A stretch of 64,000 nt of DNA from an uncultured Gammaproteobacteria bacterium (GTDB lineage Bacteria > Patescibacteriota > Microgenomatia > 2-02-FULL-39-11): NCBI GenBank assembly GCA_964520615.1, contig CAZFNL010000137.1, forward strand, positions 7,140 through 71,139, in the 5' to 3' direction. The translations under genes were made by a program, and so were the position numbers. Positions 7,316-43,486 of the stretch are shown here, piece after piece; the first letter of the stretch is position 1, and each line of letters opens with the position of its first letter. The notes beneath the pieces were generated by a model. The model had not been told where the DNA came from. It saw nothing but the letters and a program-made list of their open reading frames with translations, and did no database searches.

Positions 7316-7437
7316 TTTTTAAAGCTTTGACAATATTACCGTCAAAAGAATTTATATAATACGCCTTGCAAAAAACTGCTTAGACCATCAAATAGTATTT
7401 ATCGAATGCGGATAAATCCATCAGAGCGATAAATATC

Positions 7438-7537
7438 TCAGCTTCGCTTGGTGAATTCCATTACGGCAGATTGAAACTCCCTCGACTTTACGGCTCACCT
7501 CGCTGACAAGCGGGTCAAGGAATTCCGCGAAGGCTGG
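7438..7537 (-). ncRNA. Candidate structured GC-rich RNA element, copy 1 of 2, in the 320-bp mraY-ftsW gap. Strand is uncertain.
   Basis: Nested inverted repeats: cagcttcgc/gcgaaggctg, gaattcc/ggaattc, cgct-gaca-agcg. The 29-nt core 7492-7520 is 26/29 identical to 26597-26625. Local GC is well above the window average. Confidence 0.35.
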
Positions 7538-7636
7538 TTAAAACACACCACAAATTTAGTCTGCTTCGGACTAAAGCAAGTTACTCCCTTACGAATAAAC
7601 TATTTTCCCTACCGACTTTCATATGGATTCCCTGAA

Positions 7637-8677
7637 TTAAACCACAAAAGTAATCCATAAGCCTACAATTGCAAAAACTAAACCTACGAGCCAAGCACGA
7701 AATACTATTGTCGATTCATTCCAACCCCTTGACTGCAACCATAAATGAAAAGGAGCTGCAGATATAATTTTTTTGCCCCGATATTTCTTACTGAGAAGTT
7801 GCGCAAATGAAGAGGCAACTTCAGCAACAAAAATCCCACCTATTATCACAAGAGAAAAAACTTTCCCCAATAGAAGACCAATTACGGCAAAAGTGGCGCC
7901 GAAGGATAGAGCCCCAACGTCTCCTAAAAATATGCGAGCTGGAAATATATTAAAGTACAAAAAAGCAACCACCCCCCCCAGCCATATACCTATAAACATC
8001 GAAAGAGTAGTATCCAAAATCGCGTGAGAAATTACCCAGAAAGAAACAAGCGCGATTAGAAGCGCTCCTGCGGCCAATCCATCCAAACCATCAGTAATAT
8101 TATATGCATTTGCAAATGCAGTAATAACAAATGCAGCAAAAGGGATATAAAATATACCCAAGTTAATTACTCCAACCACCGGTACATTAATTATTCCTAT
8201 TTTAAGTTCCGAAAAAAGCCAGTATGATACAACTAATGACAATATGATTTCCAATATCAACTTGTAATGCAACTTTAGCCCGAAAAATGTTTCTCCGCCA
8301 TGAGGTATAATTACTTTTCTTATATCATCAAACAATCCCACAAGACCAAAAGATATAAAAGTAAAAATCAATATTTTTAATTCACTCCCGATATTTGGAT
8401 AAATTGAGGTTATTGGCACCCAGAAATAATATAAAAGGGGAAAACTGAGAAAAAAAAGGAGGGAAGTTATCGTAATTATAAGCAAACCTCCCCCAACAGG
8501 AGTACCGGCTTTGAATTTATTTAGTTTATCAAAAATTGGAGTCGGGAGATTAAAAGCGTCTTTAGTCTTTTGATTTTGCCTTTGTACCTTAAATTTATAT
8601 AACAGATTTATAAAAGGTATCAACGTAATCGAGTGAATTATAAAGGATAAAATTAATAGACTTAAAATTAATCCCAT
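7637..8677 (-). CDS. mraY: Phospho-N-acetylmuramoyl-pentapeptide transferase MraY.
   Basis: NAYNITDGLDGLAAG motif, ten TM segments, dcw context. Confidence 0.9.
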   Translation of the reverse strand: MGLILSLLILSFIIHSITLIPFINLLYKFKVQRQNQKTKDAFNLPTPIFDKLNKFKAGTPVGGGLLIITITSLLFFLSFPLLYYFWVPITSIYPNIGSELKILIFTFISFGLVGLFDDIRKVIIPHGGETFFGLKLHYKLILEIILSLVVSYWLFSELKIGIINVPVVGVINLGIFYIPFAAFVITAFANAYNITDGLDGLAAGALLIALVSFWVISHAILDTTLSMFIGIWLGGVVAFLYFNIFPARIFLGDVGALSFGATFAVIGLLLGKVFSLVIIGGIFVAEVASSFAQLLSKKYRGKKIISAAPFHLWLQSRGWNESTIVFRAWLVGLVFAIVGLWITFVV

Positions 8678-8685
8678 AAAAAAGA

Positions 8686-9075
8686 CTACTTAATTAAAAA
8701 AGAATGAAAAACTATTAAAGAATAAATTCTTGGAAGAAAAACTAAACAACCCACAATTGTTGCTCCGATTGCTGTCAGAAGCATCATTCCTGCTGATACA
8801 TCCTTAGCGATTTTGGCTTGTTGATGCCATTCAGTAGAAATAAGATCAGTCATTGATTCGATGGAAGTATTGACCATTTCTACAGACAATCCAAATACTA
8901 TGGTTAGAACAATTAATATAATCTCTACAGTTGAGATACTTAAAGCTATAGAAAGAAATATGGCAATAGCTGAAAAGAAAACGTGAACTCTAAAGTTCGG
9001 TTGAGTCGAAAATGCCCATTTTATACCACTTGCCGCATTCTTGAACGATATATGATGGCGTCTTATAAGTCCCAT
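8686..9075 (-). CDS. dgkA: Diacylglycerol / undecaprenol kinase (DgkA family).
   Basis: 129 aa with three TM segments and the DAGK_prokar signature (SF.NA..G...NFR.H...E..NTSIE...D). Confidence 0.7.
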   Translation of the reverse strand: MGLIRRHHISFKNAASGIKWAFSTQPNFRVHVFFSAIAIFLSIALSISTVEIILIVLTIVFGLSVEMVNTSIESMTDLISTEWHQQAKIAKDVSAGMMLLTAIGATIVGCLVFLPRIYSLIVFHSFLIK

Positions 9076-9126: not shown

Positions 9127-10149
9127 TTAGTAACCCTTTAATATTTTTCTAGTTAATTCTACTGCATATGTCGCACAATAAAGTGGAGAAAGGGGAATAT
9201 CCTTTGCGTGGATATACTCCTGTATCCTTCCGCCAAATCCTTTCTTAAAAAGCGTCAGACCTTTCCATGGGTGACGGTCATTATTTTCAGGCGCTATTCC
9301 CCAGAAATTATATTGTTTCATACCCCTCCTCCTTGCTTCCCTAATTGCCTCCCACTGTAATAGATAATTGACTGGTATTTTGGAATCTAGTGAAGCACTA
9401 TGATGGTATATAGCCTGATGATTATAGAAAACAATAAGTGCGACCGCTAAAAGTTTATTGTTGTATAAACCTTTGAATAAAAGAATTTTATCCTCCTTTA
9501 ACATTTCACAAAATTCCTCCTCTATCCCCTGATGAGGAATAAAACGCTGTCGATGTGCTGTTTTTTTATAAATTTCCATAAAGAATTTCATATCTGACTG
9601 ATTTCTGCTTTTTTCTATCCTAATACCCATTTTTTCGCCTTGTTTAATAAGATAGCGGGTAGTCTTTCGCATACCAGATAAAAGAGACATTTCATCCTTA
9701 TCTATATCCAACACCCAGCAAATTTCTCCATCCATACGGTGTATTGGAGCATCAATAAACCCCTGTGATCTCAAAAGTGCCTGATTTTCTTTTGAATTCT
9801 CGATTAGAGGACTGATACGAATAAATTTTACTCCTTTACCAATTGGAGACGATTTCAAATAATCTAAGAGTGACTTGATATTTCCAGAATTCCACAAGCT
9901 CAGGATAGGTCCATGTCTTATATGAAGAAAAGTGCCTCTTTTAGCTCTTACTTTTTCAATTTGCGCTATGCCAATAAGATTGTTTTTTTCGTAAATACCA
10001 ATCCGAGTAAAATCCTGAGTCGCCAAACCATGTTTCTTCAATTTTTTCCTTATTTCACCCCAAATCCAGGCCTGAAATAGGCTTTGTGGTGCAGCTTTAG
10101 CTAGAAAATCTTCCCAGGTTCTTTTATTTTCCAAAGTTTTTATTTCCAT
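9127..10149 (-). CDS. FemAB-family peptidyl/aminoacyl transferase (peptidoglycan stem-peptide branching).
   Basis: Similar in length and pattern to FemX/FmhB (WEDFL...SLFQAWIWGEI N-terminus; LLQWEAIREARRRGMKQYNFWGI; KGLTLFKKGFGG). Confidence 0.55.
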   Translation of the reverse strand: MEIKTLENKRTWEDFLAKAAPQSLFQAWIWGEIRKKLKKHGLATQDFTRIGIYEKNNLIGIAQIEKVRAKRGTFLHIRHGPILSLWNSGNIKSLLDYLKSSPIGKGVKFIRISPLIENSKENQALLRSQGFIDAPIHRMDGEICWVLDIDKDEMSLLSGMRKTTRYLIKQGEKMGIRIEKSRNQSDMKFFMEIYKKTAHRQRFIPHQGIEEEFCEMLKEDKILLFKGLYNNKLLAVALIVFYNHQAIYHHSASLDSKIPVNYLLQWEAIREARRRGMKQYNFWGIAPENNDRHPWKGLTLFKKGFGGRIQEYIHAKDIPLSPLYCATYAVELTRKILKGY

Positions 10150-11401
10150 ATTGTTTTATAAGTTCTATTACTTTTTCAGCTTGCTTTATGCTCATAGCCT
10201 GATAGGTTGGCAAATTTACAGATTCTCTTGCGGCTAACTTTGCCTTAATATAATTGCCTTCTCTAAATCCTATCGCTTCCATACTTACACCATATGGATC
10301 AATTATACGATGATACCAATTTCCCAAAAGTATTCCTTCCCTTTTTGCATAAGTGAGTAAATCTGTAGCATTTTTTATAAAAATATTAAATCTCAAATAA
10401 ATAGCTCCAGGAGTTTCTTGTGGCAAAGTCAAACCTTTTACTTCCTTTAAGCTGGAAAAATAATAACGTGCAATTTCCTTCCTATGATTATTGAATTTCT
10501 CAAGCTTAGGTAACTGTATCAAAAGTAGCCTTGCTAAGGCATTTGGATATTTTGCAGGAAAAACTGAAGGTTTTTCCGCCTTCTTCTCGCAAGAATATAC
10601 GGGAAATGATAACAGATGCAGCCTCTGAAAAAAGTATAACAATATCTTTCCAATATAAATATTATAAAAGGGCAAAACAATAAAGAAAACTAAGGGATGG
10701 AGCAGTTGCTGGAAAATCCAGAAAATAGAAGGACTTGGAAGTTTCAGTTGATAGTGTTTTAGTTTACTGGAATCTATCTTAGAATGTTTATTTATAATTG
10801 CCATTCCACCAAATACTGATGATATCACTTTATCTCTTCCGAAACTAAAAAAAGCTGCGTCACCAAAAGTTCCCACTTCCCTATTTCCTACCTTTGCTCC
10901 CAAACTATGCGCACAGTCTTCTATAAGTATAAGTTCATGTTTTTGAGCAATTTTTTTGGTCTTTTCAATATTAGCAGGAATTCCAAAAGTATGTTGAACA
11001 ATTATTGCCCTCGTTTTAGAAGTTATGTACTGTTCTAGCAGATGAGGATCGATATTAAGACTATCATCAATATCAACATAGACAGGTTTTGCACCTGACC
11101 ATACAACCGGATCCGGTACAGCCACGCAAGTAAACGCCTGAATTATCACTTCATCACCCGGTCCTATACCTGCAGCCGACAGAATTGCCAAAAGAGCCGA
11201 CCGACCGCTATTAAACGATACAGAAACTTTTGCCCGAAAACGTCGATTAAACCAATTCTCCACTTTCTCAACAGCGCTTCCATGCTTCCAACTCAAAGGG
11301 GAGGAAATTATTTTTATTGCCGCCAGAACATCATCAATTCCTGTATTTGGAGACAATGAAATGGCGATCGGCCTTATCATAAATTTTATCCAGGAAATCA
11401 A
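10124..11401 (-). CDS. DegT/DnrJ/EryC1/StrS-family PLP-dependent sugar aminotransferase.
   Basis: GDEVIIQAFTCVAVPDPV, IEDCAHSLGA and FFSFGRDKVIS (catalytic Lys) motifs. Has a C-terminal extension. Confidence 0.8.
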   Translation of the reverse strand: MISWIKFMIRPIAISLSPNTGIDDVLAAIKIISSPLSWKHGSAVEKVENWFNRRFRAKVSVSFNSGRSALLAILSAAGIGPGDEVIIQAFTCVAVPDPVVWSGAKPVYVDIDDSLNIDPHLLEQYITSKTRAIIVQHTFGIPANIEKTKKIAQKHELILIEDCAHSLGAKVGNREVGTFGDAAFFSFGRDKVISSVFGGMAIINKHSKIDSSKLKHYQLKLPSPSIFWIFQQLLHPLVFFIVLPFYNIYIGKILLYFFQRLHLLSFPVYSCEKKAEKPSVFPAKYPNALARLLLIQLPKLEKFNNHRKEIARYYFSSLKEVKGLTLPQETPGAIYLRFNIFIKNATDLLTYAKREGILLGNWYHRIIDPYGVSMEAIGFREGNYIKAKLAARESVNLPTYQAMSIKQAEKVIELIKQYGNKNFGK

Positions 11402-13035
11402 AATAATTCCAACGCTTTTGTCGCTTCTTTTCCCTCAAAAACTGCTATTCCTTCCGGATCGTAATTCTTCTTCAAAATATTGACTATATTGGTTGGATCT
11501 GCCTCAACTTTAATTTCTAATTTTTTTTCCTCGGTTTCCTTTACTCCATCATTTATATCTGAATAAAAATTATTATTTGTCAAAATTATTTTATCGCATA
11601 TCTTTCCTGCTTTTCTACCTAATTCGTTGTGAATTCTCCTTGATTCTTTTCCCAATTCAATTAAGGGCGTCAGTACTAATATTTTTTTACCTTTATATAT
11701 TTTCATATAATCCAATGCAGCGGTTACTCCGTCCGGATTAGCATTAAATGTATCATCAATTACTGCCATTTTTTTCTCTTTAGAGATTATTTTCATTGTT
11801 TTATCAGCACTTTTGATACTTGTTATCAAATCGACAATTCGATCAAACGAAAGACCCAAATACATTGATGCTCCTGAGGCTAATAATAAATTTGGTATAT
11901 TTTGAACACCAGAAAGACTTGTACGAACAGTCCTGGTTTTATTCTTGCATTCCATGTCAAACGACAAAACATGAGGCTGCACCAGTTGATTAGTAGCCAA
12001 AATAGTTTCCCTCCCATTTTTTCTTAATTCTTGTACTTTGCTTTTATCTGTACTGCAAAAAATCATTTTCAAATCAGGTCTTCTTTTTTTCGTCCACTCT
12101 ACCATCTGCCTGACTAATTTATTATCATAATTGAAAATAATTACTCCTCCTTTTTGGATACTCAATACAAGTTCAAATTTGGCTTTCATAATATTTTCCA
12201 GACTACCAAATAGTTCCAAATGCTGGATGTTTACTCCCGTTATAATACCCACTTTTGGTTTAACAATTTTGCAAATGGCTGCTATTTCTCCTTTCTTGTA
12301 GGCTCCCATTTCAACAATAAAAAAGTCGTTATTGCTTTTTAAGTTTCTTATTACTGTTTTGGCTATTCCGATTTCAGTATTTTGAGAACCAATAGTCTTT
12401 AGCACTTTAAAGTCTTTTTCCAGTAATTGATAAAGAAACTCCTTAGTAGAGGTTTTACCAAAGCTTCCGGTAATCCCAATTGTGGTAAGTCTAGGGTTTG
12501 ACTTAATTTTTCTTTTAGCAATAACAATCGTAATCAACTTGTATACTCTTGAAGGAATGGCGGTTGCTGCAATGGAAAAAAGTATTATAAGTGGCAATAA
12601 ACGGTCAAAAAGTTGAACTTTTATAATCATATTCGCTTTGGTCAGAATAAATAAAAACAGCAATATTTGTGAAGTAAGAATAATTACAACAATTGATCTC
12701 AGAGTCAATTTAGGTATGACAAATGCATGAGTGCCCCGTCTTACAAAAACAGAAGACTCCATAATATAAATAATTAGTACTATAAATATCCAAAATGGAA
12801 CTCCTGTTGTCCCCAGTAAAACTAAGGATAAAACAAAAACTATCCACTTAATAAAAACAAGAGGATTAAATATGATATTTCGTCCCGCAAGAGTATTATG
12901 AATATGGGCGTACAACCTATCCCAACGATACTCCTTCAACTGCAAAAGATAAATCTCGTATAGAGAAACTCTGACGATATGCAAAAAGAATAATATGTAC
13001 ACTAAGGGAGTAGCAAATACAAATATTGTATTCAT
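11398..13035 (-). CDS. murF: UDP-MurNAc-tripeptide--D-Ala-D-Ala ligase MurF in which the canonical N-terminal domain is replaced by a ~180-aa polytopic membrane domain.
   Basis: The ligase core from ~aa 185 has GITGSFGKTSTKE (P-loop), GSQNTEIGIAKTVI (cf. NNxIGxP), MGAYKKGEIA and DDTFNANPDGV. The N-terminal 180 aa form about five hydrophobic helices. Confidence 0.75.
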   Translation of the reverse strand: MNTIFVFATPLVYILFFLHIVRVSLYEIYLLQLKEYRWDRLYAHIHNTLAGRNIIFNPLVFIKWIVFVLSLVLLGTTGVPFWIFIVLIIYIMESSVFVRRGTHAFVIPKLTLRSIVVIILTSQILLFLFILTKANMIIKVQLFDRLLPLIILFSIAATAIPSRVYKLITIVIAKRKIKSNPRLTTIGITGSFGKTSTKEFLYQLLEKDFKVLKTIGSQNTEIGIAKTVIRNLKSNNDFFIVEMGAYKKGEIAAICKIVKPKVGIITGVNIQHLELFGSLENIMKAKFELVLSIQKGGVIIFNYDNKLVRQMVEWTKKRRPDLKMIFCSTDKSKVQELRKNGRETILATNQLVQPHVLSFDMECKNKTRTVRTSLSGVQNIPNLLLASGASMYLGLSFDRIVDLITSIKSADKTMKIISKEKKMAVIDDTFNANPDGVTAALDYMKIYKGKKILVLTPLIELGKESRRIHNELGRKAGKICDKIILTNNNFYSDINDGVKETEEKKLEIKVEADPTNIVNILKKNYDPEGIAVFEGKEATKALELF

Positions 13036-13751
13036 TTGATGTAGCTCGGTAACTTATCCAGAAAATCATTTGGAGATTCGTATGGTAACTTGTGAGAGGC
13101 ATTTTTTACAACCACCAGCTTACTTGTGCTTATTGTTTTATTCATTTGCACTGCAACTGACAACGGGACAATTGCATCTCTTCCTCCCCAAACTAATATT
13201 GTAGGAATTTTCAAATTTTTCATTGGTAAAAGCAAATCCTCTCTTATAACTGACTTGAACGTATCTCTCATGTAACCGTCTGTATGCATATAATCCGAAG
13301 CTCCTGCCATTCTATATAATAACTTGCGCACAATTGACTGGATTTTACGTAATACGGGCATACTAAACACTACTCCACCAATCTTGCTTATAATATAGAA
13401 AAAATAAACTTTATACCTGTTTACTGGTATAAAACCGGGAACTCCGGTTAGAATAAGGTATGAAGCATATTTGGGGTATTTAGCACAATATTTCAGCGCA
13501 ACCCTTCCCCCAAAGGAATGCCCAATTATAATCGGATTCTTGATTTTATGCTGTCTTATATATAGAGAAAGAAAGCTTACGTAATCATCTAGTTGATAAG
13601 ACCTATTGACTTTACTATTCTTCCCAAATCCGGGTAAATCCGGAACATAAACCTTATTATTTTTTGCTTCAAGAAATTTAACTAACAAACCATATTTGCT
13701 GGAATATAATCTCCATCCGTGTAAAATAATTATTTCTTTGTTTTTTATCAT
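13032..13751 (-). CDS. Alpha/beta-fold hydrolase.
   Basis: GHSFGG nucleophile elbow (GxSxG) and a/b-hydrolase topology. Confidence 0.7.
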   Translation of the reverse strand: MIKNKEIIILHGWRLYSSKYGLLVKFLEAKNNKVYVPDLPGFGKNSKVNRSYQLDDYVSFLSLYIRQHKIKNPIIIGHSFGGRVALKYCAKYPKYASYLILTGVPGFIPVNRYKVYFFYIISKIGGVVFSMPVLRKIQSIVRKLLYRMAGASDYMHTDGYMRDTFKSVIREDLLLPMKNLKIPTILVWGGRDAIVPLSVAVQMNKTISTSKLVVVKNASHKLPYESPNDFLDKLPSYIK

Positions 13752-20946: not shown

Positions 20947-21615
20947 CTAATTTATTAATCTTATCACGCTAATATTTCTTCCTGATTTATCCTTATCCCG
21001 ACGAAATGACGCAAATTCTTTATTACATTTAGTACAAACATCAAAGTTATCTATATTTTTTCGTTTGATACCCTTTGTTAAAATTGCGTTTACTGCAACC
21101 GATCCGATATCTAAATACCATCTGTCCTCTCTTTTTTCAGAAATTGCATGACCAATTCTGTCCTTAGTTTGGAAAGTTTTAATCCGTGCGTAAGGCACAT
21201 CATAACAACAATTTCCAATGTGAGGACCAATTACGCATATTATGTCTTTTACTTTCACTCCTTTACTAAGTAGTAAGTCAATGGCATTACTAATAATTCC
21301 AACCATAAGTCCCTTCCAACCAGCATGTAAAGCACAAACGATTTTTTTATCCGGCACAAATAAAAAAACTGGCATGCAATCTGCCGTTCTTATCTGTAAA
21401 TATATAGATTTATCTGTAATCATTCCGTCAAAACCATCAGGTTTTATCACCTTACTATCATTAAATTCCAATATTCTGTTTCCGTGAACCTGTTCAACTT
21501 TACAAACGTTTTTACTGAAAATACCGAATTTTTTCAGCGCCTTACTTTCGGTTTCATTGAAAAAATAATGACTAACCAGTTGAGAATATTTTTGTAGAAG
21601 ATTGGACTTGAGCAT
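20947..21615 (-). CDS. pgeF: YfiH/PgeF-family (DUF152) purine nucleoside phosphorylase / peptidoglycan editing factor.
   Basis: QVHG...DG...ADCMPV...HAGWKG motif set. This family is often found in or near the dcw cluster. Confidence 0.75.
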   Translation of the reverse strand: MLKSNLLQKYSQLVSHYFFNETESKALKKFGIFSKNVCKVEQVHGNRILEFNDSKVIKPDGFDGMITDKSIYLQIRTADCMPVFLFVPDKKIVCALHAGWKGLMVGIISNAIDLLLSKGVKVKDIICVIGPHIGNCCYDVPYARIKTFQTKDRIGHAISEKREDRWYLDIGSVAVNAILTKGIKRKNIDNFDVCTKCNKEFASFRRDKDKSGRNISVIRLIN

Positions 21616-21669: not shown

Positions 21670-22944
21670 CTATCTCTTCCCGGATAAGGCTTTTTCAACA
21701 GCTAATTTTTCGTCCCATGGATATTCTATATTCCCATAACACATTGATTTTTCATGTCCTTTACCAGTGATAAGTATTGTATCTCCGCCACCAGCCAATT
21801 TTCGTATGGCAAAGTTAATAGCTTCCTGTCTGTCAGGAATTTTCCAAAAACTCCTCTTTACCTTTTTGTATTCAACTAACAATCTTTTTCTCTTATCAAC
21901 AAATGTCATGCCGCCAATTACACAACCCTTAGCGATTTCATCTATTATGTCTCTAACATCCTCAGTTCTGGGGTCTTCTGCAGTAAGAATAGCAACATCT
22001 GACAATTTAGATGCTATTTCTCCCATTATTGGCCTTTTAAGCCTATCTCTCAACCCCGCACATCCAAATACGACAATCAGTCTGTTTCGCGTCATTTCTC
22101 TGCAAGCAGCAAGCGCCTTTTCCAAAGCATCAGGCTTATGGGCAAAATCAATGAATATCCTGTAGTTTCTTCTGATTTTAATCTCTTCCATGCGTCCGGG
22201 AATTCCCTTAAAATCAGCGATCGCCATTTCAACTTTTGACTTCTCTAAACCTAAAATTGAAGCTACGGATGCAGCAGCAAGACAATTATAGAGATTAAAC
22301 TTTCCGGGAATAAGAGGTTTCATATCATAATCTTTCAGTGTAATATCTGCGGGACGATCTATTCCATACCTTACAATCTTTCCTGATGCCTTTTGTCTCA
22401 AAAAATGAAAGTTTGACTCGTCCATGTTTAATACGCTGAAGGAAGCCCCGTTCATAATTTTTGCTTTTATTTTCTTATAGTTTTCAAAACTCTTATGATA
22501 ATCAAGATGCTCATGGGTAATATTTGTCACTACAGCAATATCAATTGAAGTTCCCCAAACTCTATACTGATCAAGGGCGTGTGAAGTGACCTCAAGAATA
22601 AAATATTCACTTCCTCCCTTTTGGGCACTTTTAATAAACTTCTGCAAAGCCCAGGAAGAAGGTGTTGTAACATGAAATCCAGTATCATAAGTCTTACCGC
22701 TTATGTTTGCTTCAACAGTGGATACCATAGAAACCTTGTATCCCAAGCGTTGTAAAATATGATAGATAAGATGGGTAGTAGTAGTTTTGCCTGAAGTTCC
22801 TGTTACACCTATAATTTTCATTTTCCCGGCAGGAAATCCGTAAAAGATACATGCGAAGAATGCATTTAGAAAATGTAAATAATTTTTAAACTGTTGCAGC
22901 ATGAGTTTGTCTATAATCAGCTTATAGTATGCTATAAGGTACAA
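21670..22944 (-). CDS. murE: UDP-MurNAc-L-Ala-D-Glu--2,6-diaminopimelate ligase MurE, lacking most of the usual N-terminal domain.
   Basis: GVTGTSGKTTTT, LEVTSHALDQYRV, TNITHEHLDYH, FAHKPDALEKAL, FGCAGLRDRLKRP, ILTAEDPRTED (a DNPR-region variant) and ITGKGHE. Only ~40 aa precede the P-loop. Confidence 0.85.
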   Translation of the reverse strand: MYLIAYYKLIIDKLMLQQFKNYLHFLNAFFACIFYGFPAGKMKIIGVTGTSGKTTTTHLIYHILQRLGYKVSMVSTVEANISGKTYDTGFHVTTPSSWALQKFIKSAQKGGSEYFILEVTSHALDQYRVWGTSIDIAVVTNITHEHLDYHKSFENYKKIKAKIMNGASFSVLNMDESNFHFLRQKASGKIVRYGIDRPADITLKDYDMKPLIPGKFNLYNCLAAASVASILGLEKSKVEMAIADFKGIPGRMEEIKIRRNYRIFIDFAHKPDALEKALAACREMTRNRLIVVFGCAGLRDRLKRPIMGEIASKLSDVAILTAEDPRTEDVRDIIDEIAKGCVIGGMTFVDKRKRLLVEYKKVKRSFWKIPDRQEAINFAIRKLAGGGDTILITGKGHEKSMCYGNIEYPWDEKLAVEKALSGKR

Positions 22945-40303: not shown

Positions 40304-43300
40304 TTAATTTTTCGGAAGTTTACCATCAGGTACCAATTGAATTATGACATATTTATTTGTCAAATAGGCTATTTTGTATTTTCTTTTTGCAGGATCTGCA
40401 ATTTGAGCTTCTGCCATCAGCTGTTTTGTAAGATCGTCAAAATTGACGCTTACATAGTAATCTGCGCCCATATTAATCATTTTGTCAATTGATTCCTGCA
40501 TCACCGGCCAACCGGCTCTGTGTGTTTGATAAAGAAATGCTGTATCTCCGTCATATGGTGCAATAACCAAAGCGCTTTGGGGAGTCTTGGTGTCAACAGC
40601 TCTTCCGGCCTCCACAATTTCCGGGTGATTAATATTGTAATAGTCCCTGACAAAATACCAGCCGAACATTTCAGTAAATACAATCGTCACTCCGATAAGA
40701 CCAAAAACCAGTATTCCTGAACGGTATTTCCTTCCCATATCGGCAAAAAAGGTTATGCCTTTTGCCACAAATACCGCAATTATAGGAACAGTCAATATCT
40801 GGTAATAATCATGCCGTACGTTGCCTGTAGCAAAAACAGTGACATATGCCAATATTGCAATTCCCCACAAGTAAAAAAGAAACTTGTCCTTTTTGATAGG
40901 AGCAAGAATTCCAAGTATCAAAAAAGGTAAACCCCAATATCCCAAAATCAGTCTGGACAATCGGTCTGCAAAAAGCCAGTAGAAAAATGCACCCTTAAAT
41001 CTGATGCCGTCGCCGTTGAGAAGCCAAAGATTGGCTGGTACTCCTTCAGGAAAATGACTTATCCACCACCGCCACCATCCTAGAGGCAGCGAAGATATAC
41101 CAAAAAATAATACGAGTCCTAAAAAAGATTTAACAGAAAATCCCATTTTCCTGACCCAAAGATAAGACATCGGAAGGAAAAGAAATACCGCATACGGTTT
41201 TACCAAAAGTGCAGCAGCTGTGAAGACGCCCGCCAAAAATAGGTAGAGTATCACCTTCACGATTTCTACAATCCTTTTTTCTCCTGAAAGTTTTAATTTC
41301 TGCTTTGAATCTAAAAATAGATCAAGAAACCAAATCATGCCAATAGAAGTACATACTAGAAGCGGATCAGGCAGTATAGTGCGGGTAAAAAAAATGTTAT
41401 ATGGAAGAAAAGCAAAAACAGCAGCTGCTATTGCGGCTTCTCTTCTTCCCAGGTATTTCCTGACAAGAAGAAAAAGAAATATTATTGATCCCAAAGTGGC
41501 AAAGATCGAAGTTAATCTGCCGGAAACTTCTATATTCCAACCGACAAATATTTTATCGGTTACTACACTCAATACGTTGTATAAAGGGAATTCCACAAAA
41601 CGCAGTCCCTTGGGATTGTTTTTCCCAGAGGCCACATTGGAAAGATCATCGTATGTGGGAAAAAGTATATTAATCCCGTGCTTTACATAATTTCTAGTAA
41701 CAGCAGAAGTATCAGCCTGTCGCCATGAATGCCAATCAGCAAGAGGCTCATCTATCTTGTACAGTCTGACGGTAAACGCAAAAACCAGTATGACAAGAAG
41801 TATGAATTTATCGCTTTTTATGAAACTAACTGATTTATGGATTAGACCTGATATAAACTCGCTCAAATCCGGTATTCTCGGGAAAGGGATCTCTCTTTTT
41901 CTCTCTTTTCTCAACATTTCCACTCCAGCTAAGACAAATCCCGTTATACCCCAAAACATAAATGCTACCTTTGACGATTCGAAAACATCAATATATAGAG
42001 CGTTAACCATAAGCCCCATTAGCAATCCGGCAAACCCGATGTTTATACTGAATATAAAGGGATCAGCAAAGAGATTCAGATTACGCCAAATGATAAATAC
42101 GATAAAAAGCAGAGTTCCGAAAAACGTAATAAAACCCAAAACTCCAGTCTCACCCAAATTCCTCAAAAAATCATTATCTGTTGATTCCGCTTCTGTAAAT
42201 TGTGTTGGCTGAGTCTTATTTAATGTTGAATATCCGCTACCCAAAAGCGGGTTTCGTTCAAAACCTTTTATCGCCATTGGCCATAAAGCGTCAAATCTTA
42301 TGGCCGTTGATAAGTCGTATATAAAGGCCGTTTTGGAATAAGTACGAGGAACAGCCGCAAGAGAAGCGCTATTTGTACCCGTGGGCACCATAAGCGGTAT
42401 ATTCTTATAGACATCAATTGGCCGGTCTGGAGTGGGAGGCTGGTCACTTGATGAAGTGATTTGAGAAAGAGCTGCGTTTGGATTATTCTCCAAAAAGACG
42501 GCTTTGTCGGGCGGAGGCGGAGCACCAAGAGGAGTCAGAAGAAGTGATTTTACACCTGAAAGACGCTCATCAATCCTGAGAAATTTAGTAAATCTCTCAG
42601 ACAGATCACCAAAAGACAGCATTACTAGAATAGAAAGAAATATAACCGTAAACCAACGGGTAAGAGACCAGGACATTCCCTTTTTATATGCCCAAAAGAA
42701 GAATATGACAGTGATGCCAAATAGATATGCGATAAAAGAAGTTCTTGAGGCAGTCAGTATAAGCGTCCAAAAGGCGGCAGAGATTGTTAGAAATATCAAC
42801 AGTTTCAGTAATTTTCTTTTAACACCAAAAAACAAACTCCAAAGAAGCACCAACGCCATCATAATATAAGCTGCCAGATCATAGTGGCCCCCAAAAGTTG
42901 AAAGAACTCTTGCATGAGGAGTCAGATAAAGCATCCAACCCTTAGCAAATTCCCGGTTCATTGTCGAAAATGCAGGCCAGTAAAGATATCTTTGACCGAA
43001 GCCGTATATCGAAACAGCAACCACAGTAACAATAATAAGACCAATATATATCTTCAACTGCTTCAGACTTCTGACAGAAGAATAAAATATGAAAAAAAGG
43101 GAAAAGTACTCTATCCGTCTAGCGTAATGTAAAAACATCTTTTCAAGGTGTAATGGTATTAAAGGTACTGTATGCAGAAGAAAAACTGCAGATAGCATGG
43201 AGAGTACTCCTACTACAAGATAGGCTAATATCGGCTTAAAAAGAGGATTACCGGACAATCTTGTCTTCCCTCGTACCAACCACACTACCCACAGGAAAAC

Positions 43301-43486
43301 ACAAAAGCTGACTATGAAATCTTCCAGTCTGACTCTGACAATATAACCCGGGAGTATATCCCCGATGGGCAATTTAGGATAAAGAGGTATGAAAACCAAA
43401 AGAAAACCTGCTAATACTGAAAGGATGTTATCATCCAACCAACTTAAAAGCTTTGACATATAGTGAAAAACGCCTGGAGTTGCCAC
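40304..43486 (-). CDS. 1060-aa fusion of an O-antigen-ligase/polymerase-like domain (Wzy_C) with a GT-C ArnT/PMT-like glycosyltransferase domain.
   Basis: The N-terminal half has ~12 TM segments and the Wzy_C terminal signature DNDFLRNLGETGVLGFI, then a Pro-rich linker (GAPPPPDK...QPPTPDRP). The C-terminal half reads LVFAFTVRLYKIDEPLADWHSWRQADTSAVTRNY plus ~11 TM segments, typical of PMT_2/GT39-like GT-C enzymes. Confidence 0.6.
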   Translation of the reverse strand: MATPGVFHYMSKLLSWLDDNILSVLAGFLLVFIPLYPKLPIGDILPGYIVRVRLEDFIVSFCVFLWVVWLVRGKTRLSGNPLFKPILAYLVVGVLSMLSAVFLLHTVPLIPLHLEKMFLHYARRIEYFSLFFIFYSSVRSLKQLKIYIGLIIVTVVAVSIYGFGQRYLYWPAFSTMNREFAKGWMLYLTPHARVLSTFGGHYDLAAYIMMALVLLWSLFFGVKRKLLKLLIFLTISAAFWTLILTASRTSFIAYLFGITVIFFFWAYKKGMSWSLTRWFTVIFLSILVMLSFGDLSERFTKFLRIDERLSGVKSLLLTPLGAPPPPDKAVFLENNPNAALSQITSSSDQPPTPDRPIDVYKNIPLMVPTGTNSASLAAVPRTYSKTAFIYDLSTAIRFDALWPMAIKGFERNPLLGSGYSTLNKTQPTQFTEAESTDNDFLRNLGETGVLGFITFFGTLLFIVFIIWRNLNLFADPFIFSINIGFAGLLMGLMVNALYIDVFESSKVAFMFWGITGFVLAGVEMLRKERKREIPFPRIPDLSEFISGLIHKSVSFIKSDKFILLVILVFAFTVRLYKIDEPLADWHSWRQADTSAVTRNYVKHGINILFPTYDDLSNVASGKNNPKGLRFVEFPLYNVLSVVTDKIFVGWNIEVSGRLTSIFATLGSIIFLFLLVRKYLGRREAAIAAAVFAFLPYNIFFTRTILPDPLLVCTSIGMIWFLDLFLDSKQKLKLSGEKRIVEIVKVILYLFLAGVFTAAALLVKPYAVFLFLPMSYLWVRKMGFSVKSFLGLVLFFGISSLPLGWWRWWISHFPEGVPANLWLLNGDGIRFKGAFFYWLFADRLSRLILGYWGLPFLILGILAPIKKDKFLFYLWGIAILAYVTVFATGNVRHDYYQILTVPIIAVFVAKGITFFADMGRKYRSGILVFGLIGVTIVFTEMFGWYFVRDYYNINHPEIVEAGRAVDTKTPQSALVIAPYDGDTAFLYQTHRAGWPVMQESIDKMINMGADYYVSVNFDDLTKQLMAEAQIADPAKRKYKIAYLTNKYVIIQLVPDGKLPKN

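What the first reader, a model, noticed from the sequence alone, without database searches (positions are those of the whole stretch)
11398..13035. MurF whose N-terminal substrate-binding domain is replaced by a five-helix membrane domain
The ligase core is clearly MurF-like (P-loop GITGSFGKTSTKE, NTEIG, DDTFNANP). The first ~180 residues are strongly hydrophobic (IVFVLSLVLLGTTGVPFWIFIVLIIYI...) and form several predicted TM helices in place of the usual cytosolic UDP-MurNAc-tripeptide-binding domain. This would tether the last cytoplasmic step of precursor synthesis to the membrane, next to MraY. MurE in this cluster also lacks most of its N-terminal domain.
Basis: partly seen in the sequence, partly recalled or inferred. 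Interest (0 to 1): 0.55.

Follow-up and report, generated by a model that had tools for sequence, protein, structure and literature searches.

The report
Membrane-embedded MurF cell-wall ligase
This gene encodes the enzyme for the last cytoplasmic step of cell-wall precursor synthesis (MurF), but its usual nucleotide-binding head is replaced by a conserved five-helix membrane domain of unknown fold, a design shared by hundreds of ultrasmall (CPR/Patescibacteria) bacteria and some Chloroflexi and apparently not yet described.

Summary
The ORF at 11398..13035 (minus strand, 545 aa) has a MurF-type ligase core at residues ~180-545. MurF domain 1 is absent. In its place are ~180 residues with five hydrophobic helices.

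This is not a gene-calling artefact. The ATG overlaps the stop codon of the upstream gene (ATGA). More than 115 full-length homologues at 36-44% identity cover 97-100% of the protein. The N-domain is as conserved as the core.

The domain carries an invariant motif, W-Q-x-K-E-Y-R-x-D-R, on the predicted cytoplasmic face. It matches no Pfam family and no solved fold. It defines a family of more than 1000 sequence clusters across CPR lineages and some Anaerolineae, always N-terminal to a MurF core in the hits examined.

The gene sits in the murF slot of the dcw cluster. It is usually flanked by an alpha/beta-hydrolase, a DegT-like PLP enzyme and a FemAB-like transferase, and fusion proteins link all four.

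Best reading: the organism's MurF, built as an integral membrane enzyme whose membrane domain replaces domain 1. Biochemistry is untested. This is a new variant of a known enzyme, and I found no publication describing it.

The parts
11398..13035 (-). Complete ORF of the membrane-embedded MurF (545 aa)
   Evidence: ORF list. More than 115 full-length homologues cover 97-100% of it. AF2 model has pLDDT 94.7 and pTM 0.91.
13032..13035 (-). ATGA overlap: the start codon of the MurF gene overlaps the stop codon of the upstream alpha/beta-hydrolase gene (translational coupling)
   Evidence: Sequence read. The same 4-nt overlap appears in the gene calls of relatives L001, L003 and L088.
12496..13035 (-). 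N-terminal membrane domain, residues 1-180. Five TM helices lie at roughly 2-26, 58-77, 79-100, 112-131 and 136-162. Helix 5 continues as a cytoplasmic stalk to residue 178.
12916..12948 (-). Invariant cytoplasmic motif, residues 30-40 (LLQLKEYRWDR here; family consensus L-W-Q-L-K-E-Y-R-x-D-R)
   Evidence: Q32, K34, E35, Y36, R37, D39 and R40 are invariant in 117 of 117 sequences. The pattern Q.KEYR.DR occurs in 200 of 255 family proteins held.
12697..12714 (-). Second conserved cytoplasmic loop, residues 108-113 (P108 invariant; T111 and K113 at 90% or more)
   Evidence: Alignment A1; topology.
11869..12474 (-). Mur ligase middle (ATP-binding) domain, residues 188-389. It includes the P-loop at residues 187-199 (bases 12439-12477), E242, H272, and K286 (bases 12178-12180), which aligns with E. 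coli MurF K202.
   Evidence: Pfam PF08245, E 7e-37. Invariant columns. Alignment to 1GG4.
11434..11796 (-). Mur ligase C-terminal domain, residues 414-534, with the MurF-type DDTFNANP motif at residues 427-434 (bases 11734-11757)
   Evidence: Pfam PF02875. Alignment to MurF structures, DDSYNAN in E. coli.
13032..13751 (-). Alpha/beta-hydrolase (239 aa, GHSFGG nucleophile elbow), the conserved upstream partner
   Evidence: Pfam. Directly upstream in 64 of 77 assessable loci. Also upstream in the large-genome relatives L085 and L086. MurF::hydrolase fusions P0308 and P0309.
10124..11401 (-). DegT/DnrJ/EryC1-family PLP enzyme with a hydrophobic insertion, the conserved downstream partner. The likely start is the ATG at 11380.
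   Evidence: Pfam. Next gene downstream in 51 of 63 assessable loci. Fusions with the membrane MurF: P0261-P0267, P0269, P0270 and L046. Hydrophobic segment at residues 237-255. Sequence around the start.
9127..10149 (-). FemAB-family transferase, third partner of the module
   Evidence: Pfam. Synteny. Triple fusion P0268, 1293 aa.
7637..8677 (-). MraY, the membrane enzyme that uses the MurF product
   Evidence: Pfam PF00953. It is the gene directly after the membrane MurF in 9 of 63 assessable loci and follows the module in most others.
21670..22944 (-). MurE lacking domain 1 (424 aa)
   Evidence: TIGR01085 murE scores 376 bits. NF001126 aligns residues 28-421 to profile positions 90-483. The PDB alignment starts at T. 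maritima MurE residue 85. Relatives are 398-430 aa without PF01225.

Best explanation
This is the organism's MurF, the ATP-dependent ligase that adds the terminal dipeptide (normally D-Ala-D-Ala) to the MurNAc-tripeptide precursor. It is built as an integral membrane protein.

Five transmembrane helices (N-terminus outside, ligase inside) replace the soluble domain 1, which in canonical MurF holds the UDP end of the acceptor. Helix 5 runs straight out of the membrane as a rigid stalk into the first strand of the ATP-binding domain. The active site is therefore held at the inner face of the membrane.

Two cytoplasmic loops of the membrane domain carry invariant charged and aromatic residues: WQxKEYRxDR, then P108/T111/K113. 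I infer that they take over part of the role of domain 1, binding the diphosphate-sugar end of the acceptor, and/or that they dock the enzyme to its partners. The product would then be made next to MraY.

The enzyme works within a conserved module with an alpha/beta-hydrolase, a DegT-like PLP enzyme and a FemAB-like transferase.

Shown: the architecture, its conservation, the predicted topology, MurF-type sequence and fold, the gene position, and the partner genes and fusions. Inferred: the substrate, the role of the motif, and channelling to MraY.
For: - **MurF identity of the core.** The best NCBIfam model is murF at 230.7 bits, against 71.8 bits for the next distinct enzyme, murE. A family profile finds only MurF structures at the top of the PDB (1GG4, E 1e-54). 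Foldseek with the AF2 model ranks ten MurF entries first (4QF5, E 7e-29, TM 0.71 over about 385 columns). The P-loop, E242, H272, K286 (aligned with E. coli K202), NTxIG and DDTFNANP are conserved.
- **Domain replacement is real.** See the ATGA overlap and the full-length homologues. N-domain identity equals core identity. The AF2 model is confident, with pTM 0.91 for the whole chain.
- **Family size and architecture.** A profile of the N-domain finds 1073 clusters at 50% identity with E<=1e-3, and 600 at E<=1e-10. The best 150 are proteins of 490-570 aa with the domain at the N-terminus, or shorter entries. The shorter ones I read break off within the N-domain or the ligase core; some have unrelated-looking C-terminal ends, which I did not follow up.
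- **Taxonomic range.** Record titles include Gottesman-, Levy- and Woesebacteria, Parcubacteria lineages, Dojkabacteria, Saccharibacteria, Gracilibacteria and Anaerolineae. The Anaerolineae contigs have 51-64% GC.
- **Gene position.** The gene lies between glmS or the hydrolase and mraY in dcw clusters. No second MurF-like ORF appears in any of the 80 loci. In two 4-6 Mb genomes the order is murE, hydrolase, a protein of the same layout (N-domain homology unproven), ddl, mraY, murD.
- **Topology.** The invariant motif falls on the cytoplasmic side.
- **Module.** Synteny counts and fusion proteins.
Against: - No biochemical or genetic data exist.
- The TIGR01143 score is below the curated cut-off (230.7 against 288.6).
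- Only 64 kb of this genome is visible, so a second, canonical MurF elsewhere cannot be excluded.
- No Ddl gene is present in the window or in any of the 80 CPR loci, so the source and identity of the dipeptide are open.
- I could not read model coordinates, so the closeness of the invariant motif to the acceptor pocket is not measured.
- The N-domains of the two large-genome relatives match the CPR domain only weakly (hhalign E 0.038). The argument from their dcw clusters therefore rests on shared layout rather than proven homology of the membrane domain.
Confidence: 0.7

Rival explanations
1. The enzyme acts on a lipid-linked acceptor. The membrane domain would bind undecaprenyl-diphospho-MurNAc-tripeptide (a lipid I type intermediate) instead of the UDP-linked precursor, so the dipeptide would be added after the MraY step. 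In this lineage MurE has also lost its UDP-binding domain, so the late peptide steps would be uncoupled from UDP.
For: - Both MurE and MurF lack domain 1 here and in relatives.
- The invariant K, R, E and D residues sit at the membrane-cytoplasm interface, where a lipid diphosphate would lie.
- The partners include a FemAB-family enzyme. From my own knowledge, family members act on lipid II in staphylococci.
- The DegT-like partner has a hydrophobic insertion.
- From my own knowledge, the Mur-ligase relative that lacks domain 1, MurT, works on lipid II.
Against: - In the 4-6 Mb relatives with the same layout, MurE keeps a full domain 1 (PF01225). The order murE, murF-like, ddl, mraY is the canonical one, which fits a UDP-linked pathway.
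- The short MurE has no membrane segment.
- No known MraY pathway transfers a tripeptide precursor as the main route (my own knowledge).
- Nothing here tests substrate choice.
Confidence: 0.12
2. It is a paralogue with a different job: a Mur-type ligase of a lineage-specific envelope module (hydrolase, ligase, DegT-like, FemAB-like). It would add another amino acid or peptide to peptidoglycan or to another polymer, while a canonical MurF is encoded elsewhere in the genome.
For: - The four-gene module also occurs outside dcw clusters, for example in L087, L088 and several Parcubacteria-type loci.
- The fusions tie the ligase to the DegT-like and FemAB-like enzymes rather than to MraY.
- The murF model score is below its cut-off.
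- Only part of the genome is visible.
Against: - The core is clearly closest to MurF in sequence and fold.
- No other MurF-like ORF appears in the window or in 80 loci, many of which span mraZ to ftsZ.
- In 9 of 63 loci the ligase stands alone between glmS/glmU and mraY, without the other module genes.
- In large genomes it sits between murE and ddl-mraY.
Confidence: 0.12
3. It is a gene-call artefact. The true MurF would start near residue 180, and the upstream hydrophobic stretch would be untranslated or a separate small membrane ORF.
For: NCBI records of 87%-identical relatives are annotated as 383 aa (starting MVIVAKRK...) and 347 aa.
Against: - The window sequence has no Met at that position and none between M136 and M243.
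- The 347-aa call starts after the P-loop and cannot be a functional enzyme.
- The reading frame is open from the stop codon of the upstream gene.
- The N-domain has seven invariant residues in its first cytoplasmic loop and one more, P108, in the second. It diverges at the same rate as the core.
- Hundreds of homologues keep the fusion.
- There is no excess of promoter-like sites in the region: 33 found against 34 expected.
Confidence: 0.02

Closest known systems
Canonical MurF (UDP-MurNAc-tripeptide:D-Ala-D-Ala ligase; for example E. coli 1GG4, A. baumannii 4QF5, P. aeruginosa 4CVK, T. maritima 3ZL8)
   Same: The middle and C-terminal domains match, including the P-loop, Mg/ATP residues, the Lys aligned with E. 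coli K202, and the NNxIG-type and DDxYNANP motifs. It is the best hit in sequence and in fold. It occupies the same slot in the dcw cluster.
   Different: The soluble N-terminal domain 1 (about 80-110 aa) is absent. A 180-residue five-pass membrane domain with its own invariant motif takes its place. The protein is predicted to be integral to the membrane, whereas MurC to MurF are textbook soluble enzymes.
MurE-MurF fusion proteins (NF008896; Bordetella structure 8F5D)
   Same: They are another natural way of tying MurF physically to a neighbouring step of the pathway. The MurF half matches the query (198.6 bits; 116 bits).
   Different: Those fusions are soluble and keep the N-terminal domains (PF01225 in P0315-P0329). 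Here the link is to the membrane, and MurE is a separate, shortened protein.
MurT of the MurT/GatD lipid II amidotransferase
   Same: It is a Mur-ligase fold without the UDP-binding domain 1, and it works at the membrane on a lipid-linked precursor (my own knowledge). It is detectable as a weak relative.
   Different: MurT is soluble, has a Cys-rich insert and a DUF1727 C-domain, and amidates rather than ligates a dipeptide. The scores are far below membership level: 24.9 bits against a cut-off of 800.
PgsB/CapB of the poly-gamma-glutamate synthetase complex
   Same: From my own knowledge (not tested here), it is a Mur-ligase-family amide ligase that is membrane-associated and works inside a membrane complex.
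   Different: It has a different substrate (a glutamate polymer), and as I recall it (not checked here) only a short N-terminal hydrophobic anchor rather than a conserved five-helix domain. It has no MurF-type motifs.

Membership tests
Mur ligase superfamily (ATP-dependent amide ligases) | Middle ATP-binding domain (PF08245) with a GxxGKT/S P-loop | tested here: met
   PF08245 at residues 188-389, E 7e-37. GITGSFGKTS at 187-196. G190, G193 and K194 are invariant.
Mur ligase superfamily (ATP-dependent amide ligases) | C-terminal domain (PF02875) | tested here: met
   PF02875 at residues 414-534, 44.5 bits against a cut-off of 28.4.
Mur ligase superfamily (ATP-dependent amide ligases) | Conserved catalytic residues: a Mg-binding Glu and His, and the Lys that is carbamylated in MurD/E/F | tested here: met
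   E242, H272 and K286 are invariant in 117 sequences. K286 aligns with E. coli MurF K202. Carbamylation itself is not testable here.
MurF (TIGR01143) | MurF is the best-matching Mur ligase type in sequence and fold | tested here: met
   murF scores 230.7 bits against 71.8 for murE. The top PDB hits are all MurF. The ten best Foldseek hits are all MurF.
MurF (TIGR01143) | Score reaches the curated family cut-off | tested here: not met
   230.7 bits against a cut-off of 288.6. Profile positions 1-70 are unmatched.
MurF (TIGR01143) | N-terminal domain 1 that binds the UDP end of the acceptor | tested here: not met
   There is no PF01225 hit. Alignments to MurF structures begin at query residue 173-187. 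Residues 1-180 are a helical membrane domain.
MurF (TIGR01143) | MurF-type motifs NNxIG (after the P-loop) and DDxYNANP (C-domain) | tested here: met
   QNTEIG at 218-223 aligns with E. coli LNNDIG, and DDTFNANP at 427-434 aligns with DDSYNAN. N219, D427, D428, N431, N433 and P434 are invariant or at 90% or more.
MurF (TIGR01143) | Gene in the murE-murF-mraY slot of the dcw cluster | tested here: met
   In the window it lies within the mraZ-to-ftsZ cluster, upstream of mraY, with module genes in between. It is directly before mraY in 9 of 63 loci. In L085 and L086 the order is murE, hydrolase, this gene, ddl, mraY.
MurF (TIGR01143) | Ligates D-Ala-D-Ala to UDP-MurNAc-tripeptide | not testable with these tools
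   This needs an enzyme assay or complementation. No ddl gene is seen in the window or in the CPR loci.
MurF (TIGR01143) | Only MurF-type gene of the genome | tested here: inconclusive
   Only three Mur ligases occur in the 64-kb window: MurC, the short MurE and this one. None of the 80 loci holds a second MurF-like ORF. Whole genomes could not be scanned.
MurT (lipid II isoglutaminyl synthase subunit) | Sequence membership (NF052464 / NF045635) | tested here: not met
   24.9 bits against a cut-off of 800.

The most novel reading that the evidence does not exclude
In CPR bacteria the late peptide-adding steps are no longer UDP-based. On this reading the membrane domain of MurF binds a lipid-linked (undecaprenyl-diphosphate) MurNAc-peptide. 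MurF would then form a membrane-bound 'stem-peptide finishing' complex with the alpha/beta-hydrolase, the DegT-like PLP enzyme and the FemAB-like tRNA-dependent transferase. The DegT-FemAB pair sits where ddl sits in larger genomes and may supply or replace the D-Ala-D-Ala dipeptide. That would be a re-ordered peptidoglycan precursor pathway in a radiation comprising a large share of bacterial diversity.
Probability: 0.12. Interest if true: 0.9.

Novelty: new variant of a known kind. Interest (0 to 1): 0.62.

Why it matters
The Mur ligases are the textbook soluble, cytoplasmic half of peptidoglycan synthesis, and they are long-standing antibiotic targets. Whether these enzymes hand their products on through a membrane-associated complex has been debated for years without a clean natural example.

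Here MurF is predicted to be hard-wired into the membrane by a conserved domain of unknown fold. That domain replaces the substrate-holding domain 1. The design is shared across the Candidate Phyla Radiation and some Chloroflexota.

Three consequences follow:
- It gives a directly testable system for substrate channelling to MraY.
- It defines a new membrane domain whose seven invariant motif residues can be mutated.
- It exposes a four-protein module, with fusion proteins as evidence of joint action, that may explain how these reduced organisms finish their stem peptide without a nearby ddl.

It also shows that current annotation sometimes clips the domain off, which hides the feature in public records.

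Tried and rejected
- **Separate ORF or wrong start.** Rejected. See the ATGA overlap, the absence of an internal Met, and conservation equal to that of the core. There is no excess of promoter-like sites.
- **Known family for the N-domain.**
  - Pfam found nothing on the query, and nothing consistent on 29 N-domains at E<=1.
  - NCBIfam found nothing upstream of residue 166.
  - A PDB profile search found nothing upstream of residue about 161.
  - The afdb50 Foldseek library was not available.
- **Stand-alone versions of the N-domain.** The short hits I read stop within the N-domain or the ligase core. Several run on into GITGSYGKTS, and a few end in unrelated-looking sequence that I did not follow up. 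None is an evident stand-alone domain.
- **Literature.** Six full-text searches and five papers checked found no description of a membrane-embedded MurF. Subscription journals are not covered.
- **Second Mur ligase, MurD or Ddl in the window.** None was found by phmmer against all ORFs or by Pfam on the other genes.
- **Homology between the CPR N-domain and that of the 4-6 Mb genome proteins.** The HMM finds nothing. hhalign gives only E 0.038 over 39 columns, in the same register. This is left open.
- **Could not be done.** I could not read model coordinates or PAE to measure the distance from the motif to the active site.
Full report
**What is at the coordinates**

The minus strand carries one ORF from 13035 down to 11398, 545 aa with an ATG start. 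No ORF of 60 aa or more lies on the plus strand inside it. The only other ORF is a 61-aa out-of-frame stretch across the 5' end, which I regard as spurious.

Pfam places a Mur ligase middle domain at 188-389 and a C-terminal domain at 414-534, and nothing before residue 188. Among NCBIfam models the best is murF (TIGR01143, 230.7 bits). It aligns residues 180-526 to profile positions 71-396 of 418. The part of the profile that models MurF domain 1 therefore has no counterpart, and the score stays under the 288.6-bit cut-off.

**Is the ligase core MurF?**

- A profile built from 117 family members hits E. coli MurF (1GG4) at E 1e-54, followed by four more MurF sequences. MurE, MurD and MurC come far behind.
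- A confident AlphaFold2 model (pLDDT 94.7, pTM 0.91) finds ten MurF entries first in the PDB. The best is 4QF5, with E 7e-29 and TM-score 0.71 over about 385 columns. MurE comes after them.
- The residue-level alignment shows the P-loop, E242, H272, K286 (aligned with E. coli K202), QNTEIG against LNNDIG, and DDTFNANP against DDSYNAN. These positions are invariant or nearly so in the family.
- Every alignment to a solved MurF starts at query residue 173-187. That corresponds to residue 73-114 of the solved enzymes, which is the start of their domain 2.

**Is the hydrophobic N-terminus part of the protein?**

Four lines of evidence say yes.

1. The ATG at 13035-13033 overlaps the TGA of the upstream alpha/beta-hydrolase gene (ATGA). 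The same 4-nt overlap is seen in gene calls of distant relatives.
2. There is no Met between M136 and M243, so no ATG could start a soluble enzyme.
3. The 120 best database hits are almost all 520-580 aa. They cover 97-100% of the query at 36-44% identity.
4. Residues 1-180 are 86.1% identical to the closest relative, against 85.8% for the rest of the protein. Both parts are therefore under the same constraint.

NCBI records for 87%-identical relatives are annotated as 383 aa, or as 347 aa with a start after the P-loop. Annotation pipelines can therefore clip this domain, which may help explain why the feature has gone unnoticed.

**Anatomy of the N-domain**

Hydropathy gives five hydrophobic stretches. 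AF2 models of the whole protein and of residues 1-180 alone (pLDDT 93.9) agree on the following helices:

- 2-33
- 38-47 and 49-55 (short)
- 58-77
- 79-104
- 112-131
- 136-178, a single long helix that leaves the membrane and runs into the first beta-strand before the P-loop

Averaged over 117 sequences, K+R counts are 5.5 in loop 27-57, 3.7 in loop 100-113 and 6.1 in linker 163-183. They are 0.3 and 0.5 in the two short loops and 0 at the N-terminus. This fits a five-pass N-out/C-in topology with the ATP-dependent ligase in the cytoplasm.

The first cytoplasmic loop carries Q32, K34, E35, Y36, R37, D39 and R40, all invariant in 117 of 117 sequences. L30, W31, H44, T48 and G51 are nearly invariant. 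P108 is invariant in the second loop, and T111, K113, D144, P161 and A173 are at 90% or more. A plain anchor would not need such a motif.

**Is the domain known?**

An exhaustive profile search finds 1073 clusters at 50% identity with E<=1e-3, and 600 at E<=1e-10. Among the best 150, the domain sits at the N-terminus of proteins of about 490-570 aa, or of shorter entries. The shorter ones I read stop within the domain or within the ligase core. A few end in unrelated-looking sequence that I did not examine. No evident stand-alone form was seen.

**Who has it, and where is the gene?**

A scan of one genome per species with WQ[LIM]KEYRxD gave 124 confirmed loci. Record titles include Gottesman-, Levy- and Woesebacteria, several Parcubacteria lineages, Dojkabacteria, Saccharibacteria, Gracilibacteria and a few Anaerolineae. 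Many other titles read 'uncultured Gammaproteobacteria'. The Anaerolineae contigs have 51-64% GC against 32-46% for the other loci checked, which argues against mis-binned CPR DNA.

I mapped the neighbours of 80 loci by phmmer with the window's own proteins.

- In Microgenomates-type loci the order matches the window: mraZ, mraW, PBP, short MurE, (YfiH-like), MurC, MurB, MurA, GlmU-like, GlmS, alpha/beta-hydrolase, membrane MurF, DegT-like, FemAB-like, (DAGK), MraY, FtsW, MurG, FtsA, FtsZ.
- The hydrolase is directly upstream in 64 of 77 assessable loci.
- The DegT-like gene follows in 51 of 63 loci. In 9 of 63 the next gene is mraY itself.
- No locus holds a second MurF-like ORF. The window holds only three Mur ligases.

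In two genomes of 4 and 5.9 Mb, a 592-620-aa protein of the same layout sits in a classical cluster. The order there is mraW, ftsL, PBP, full-length MurE, alpha/beta-hydrolase, this protein, Ddl, MraY, MurD, FtsW, MurG, MurC. Its N-domain has LQLDGYKTTRY at the motif position, but it matches the CPR domain only weakly (hhalign E 0.038). I use it as support from layout and position, not as proven homology of the membrane part.

**The module**

Searching with a 1073-aa Anaerolineae ORF (L046) returned three kinds of natural fusion protein:

- membrane MurF + DegT-like: nine proteins of 773-963 aa
- membrane MurF + DegT-like + FemAB-like: P0268, 1293 aa
- MurF + alpha/beta-hydrolase: P0308 and P0309

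I checked the domain order of each by phmmer. Together with the synteny and the overlapping or closely spaced genes, this argues that the four proteins work together. What the hydrolase and the PLP enzyme do is unknown.

No Ddl-like ORF occurs in the window or in any of the 80 CPR loci, whereas Ddl directly follows the MurF-like gene in the two large genomes. The DegT-FemAB pair thus occupies the place of ddl. I record this as an observation, not an explanation.

**How it most likely works**

The shown facts are these:

- a MurF-type catalytic core
- loss of domain 1
- a conserved five-pass membrane domain joined to the core by a continuous helix
- a confident single-body model (pTM 0.91)
- invariant polar residues on the cytoplasmic face
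- the murF slot next to mraY
- conserved partners

From these I infer that this is the cell's MurF, working at the inner face of the membrane. I also infer that the cytoplasmic loops of the membrane domain replace at least part of the acceptor-holding role of domain 1, or dock partner proteins. The pentapeptide precursor would then be released next to MraY. I give this 0.7.

Two rivals keep about 0.12 each.

- **Lipid-linked acceptor.** This is suggested by the joint loss of domain 1 in MurE and MurF and by the interface position of the charged motif. It is weakened by the large-genome relatives, which keep a full MurE and a canonical gene order.
- **Paralogue with another ligation job inside the module.** This is weakened by the absence of any other MurF in more than 60 dcw clusters and by the loci where the ligase stands alone before mraY.

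The artefact reading is essentially excluded.

**Comparison with what is known**

The protein works like MurF and is most likely its orthologue. It fails two formal membership features: domain 1 and the curated score. I therefore file it as a new architectural variant of MurF rather than a standard member.

- MurE-MurF fusions are a soluble analogue of physical coupling.
- MurT is a Mur-ligase relative without domain 1 that acts on lipid II.
- PgsB is a membrane-associated Mur-ligase relative. The statements about MurT and PgsB come from my own knowledge and were not tested here.

I found no paper that describes a membrane-embedded MurF or this domain. The library searched lacks most subscription journals.

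**Verdict**

This is a new variant of a known kind. Interest is 0.62. The architecture contradicts the textbook picture of soluble Mur ligases, is conserved across a very large radiation, introduces an uncharacterised membrane domain with a clear mutational target, and comes with a fusion-supported partner module. Function remains inferred.

Noticed in passing
window 21670-22944 (-): MurE is only 424 aa and lacks domain 1. It aligns from its residue 24 to residue 85 of T. maritima MurE. Relatives are 398-430 aa without PF01225. Where E. coli-type MurE has the DNPR motif linked to meso-DAP (my own knowledge), this protein reads EDPR. Together with the FemAB gene, that hints at a Lys-type stem peptide.
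   Followed up: partly
window 9127-13751 (-); loci L005-L084: A four-gene module (alpha/beta-hydrolase, membrane MurF, DegT-like PLP enzyme, FemAB-like transferase) is conserved across CPR lineages, both inside and outside dcw clusters. Natural fusions link them: MurF::DegT, MurF::DegT::FemAB (P0268, 1293 aa) and MurF::hydrolase (P0308, P0309). The roles of the hydrolase and the PLP enzyme are unknown.
   Followed up: partly
window 1-64000; L005-L084; L085 11880-13097; L086 12156-13340: No Ddl-like ORF occurs in the window or in any of the 80 CPR loci. In two 4-6 Mb genomes ddl directly follows the MurF-like gene, in the position that DegT-FemAB occupy in CPR. MurD is found only in Parcubacteria-type loci (L069, L072, L082, L083). 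It is absent from the Microgenomates-type dcw clusters and from the window; the gap between mraY and ftsW at 7316-7636 is only 320 bp.
   Followed up: partly
window 10124-11401 (-): The DegT/DnrJ/EryC1-family protein has its Pfam match split in two by an insertion that contains a strongly hydrophobic segment (residues 237-255, LVFFIVLPFYNIYIGKILL). This suggests membrane association of a normally soluble enzyme type. Its likely start is the ATG at 11380 rather than the TTG at 11401.
   Followed up: partly
relatives of P0001 (MCL5798498.1, MCL4339002.1): Public NCBI records of 87%-identical proteins are annotated as 383 aa and 347 aa. These cut off the membrane domain, and in one case the P-loop as well. 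Homology-guided start selection appears to hide this architecture.
   Followed up: yes
window 20947-21615 (-): A Cu-oxidase_4 (YfiH-type) gene lies between MurE and MurC, and it recurs at that place in many related loci. From my own knowledge, YfiH/PgeF has been linked to editing of peptidoglycan precursors.
   Followed up: no
window 8686-9075 (-): A prokaryotic diacylglycerol-kinase-family gene lies directly upstream of mraY and is conserved there in Gottesmanbacteria-type loci. From my own knowledge, Gram-positive homologues are undecaprenol kinases, which would fit supply of the lipid carrier.
   Followed up: no
window 1-64000: All large ORFs of the 64-kb window lie on the minus strand, and GC skew is negative in every 2-kb bin (cumulative -4.66). 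A paper on a complete Microgenomates genome reports whole-chromosome G/C strand disparity in related lineages (PMC7143001).
   Followed up: partly
window 33880-56417 (-): A long run of glycosyltransferase genes (GT1, GT2, GT4 types) lies here. It also includes a sugar transferase, a nucleotidyl transferase, a hexapeptide acyltransferase, a methyltransferase, a PMT_2-type membrane glycosyltransferase and a Polysacc_synt flippase. This is a large surface-polysaccharide cluster next to the dcw cluster. The 1060-aa ORF at 40304-43486 and the ORFs beyond 53.6 kb were not examined.
   Followed up: partly
L085 10001-11863; L086 10001-11779: Proteins of 592-620 aa in 4-6 Mb genomes have the same layout: hydrophobic N-terminus, P-loop near residue 189, and the murF slot. 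They carry LQLDGYKTTRY instead of WQLKEYRxDR and match the CPR N-domain only at hhalign E 0.038. This may be a divergent or an independent membrane MurF.
   Followed up: partly
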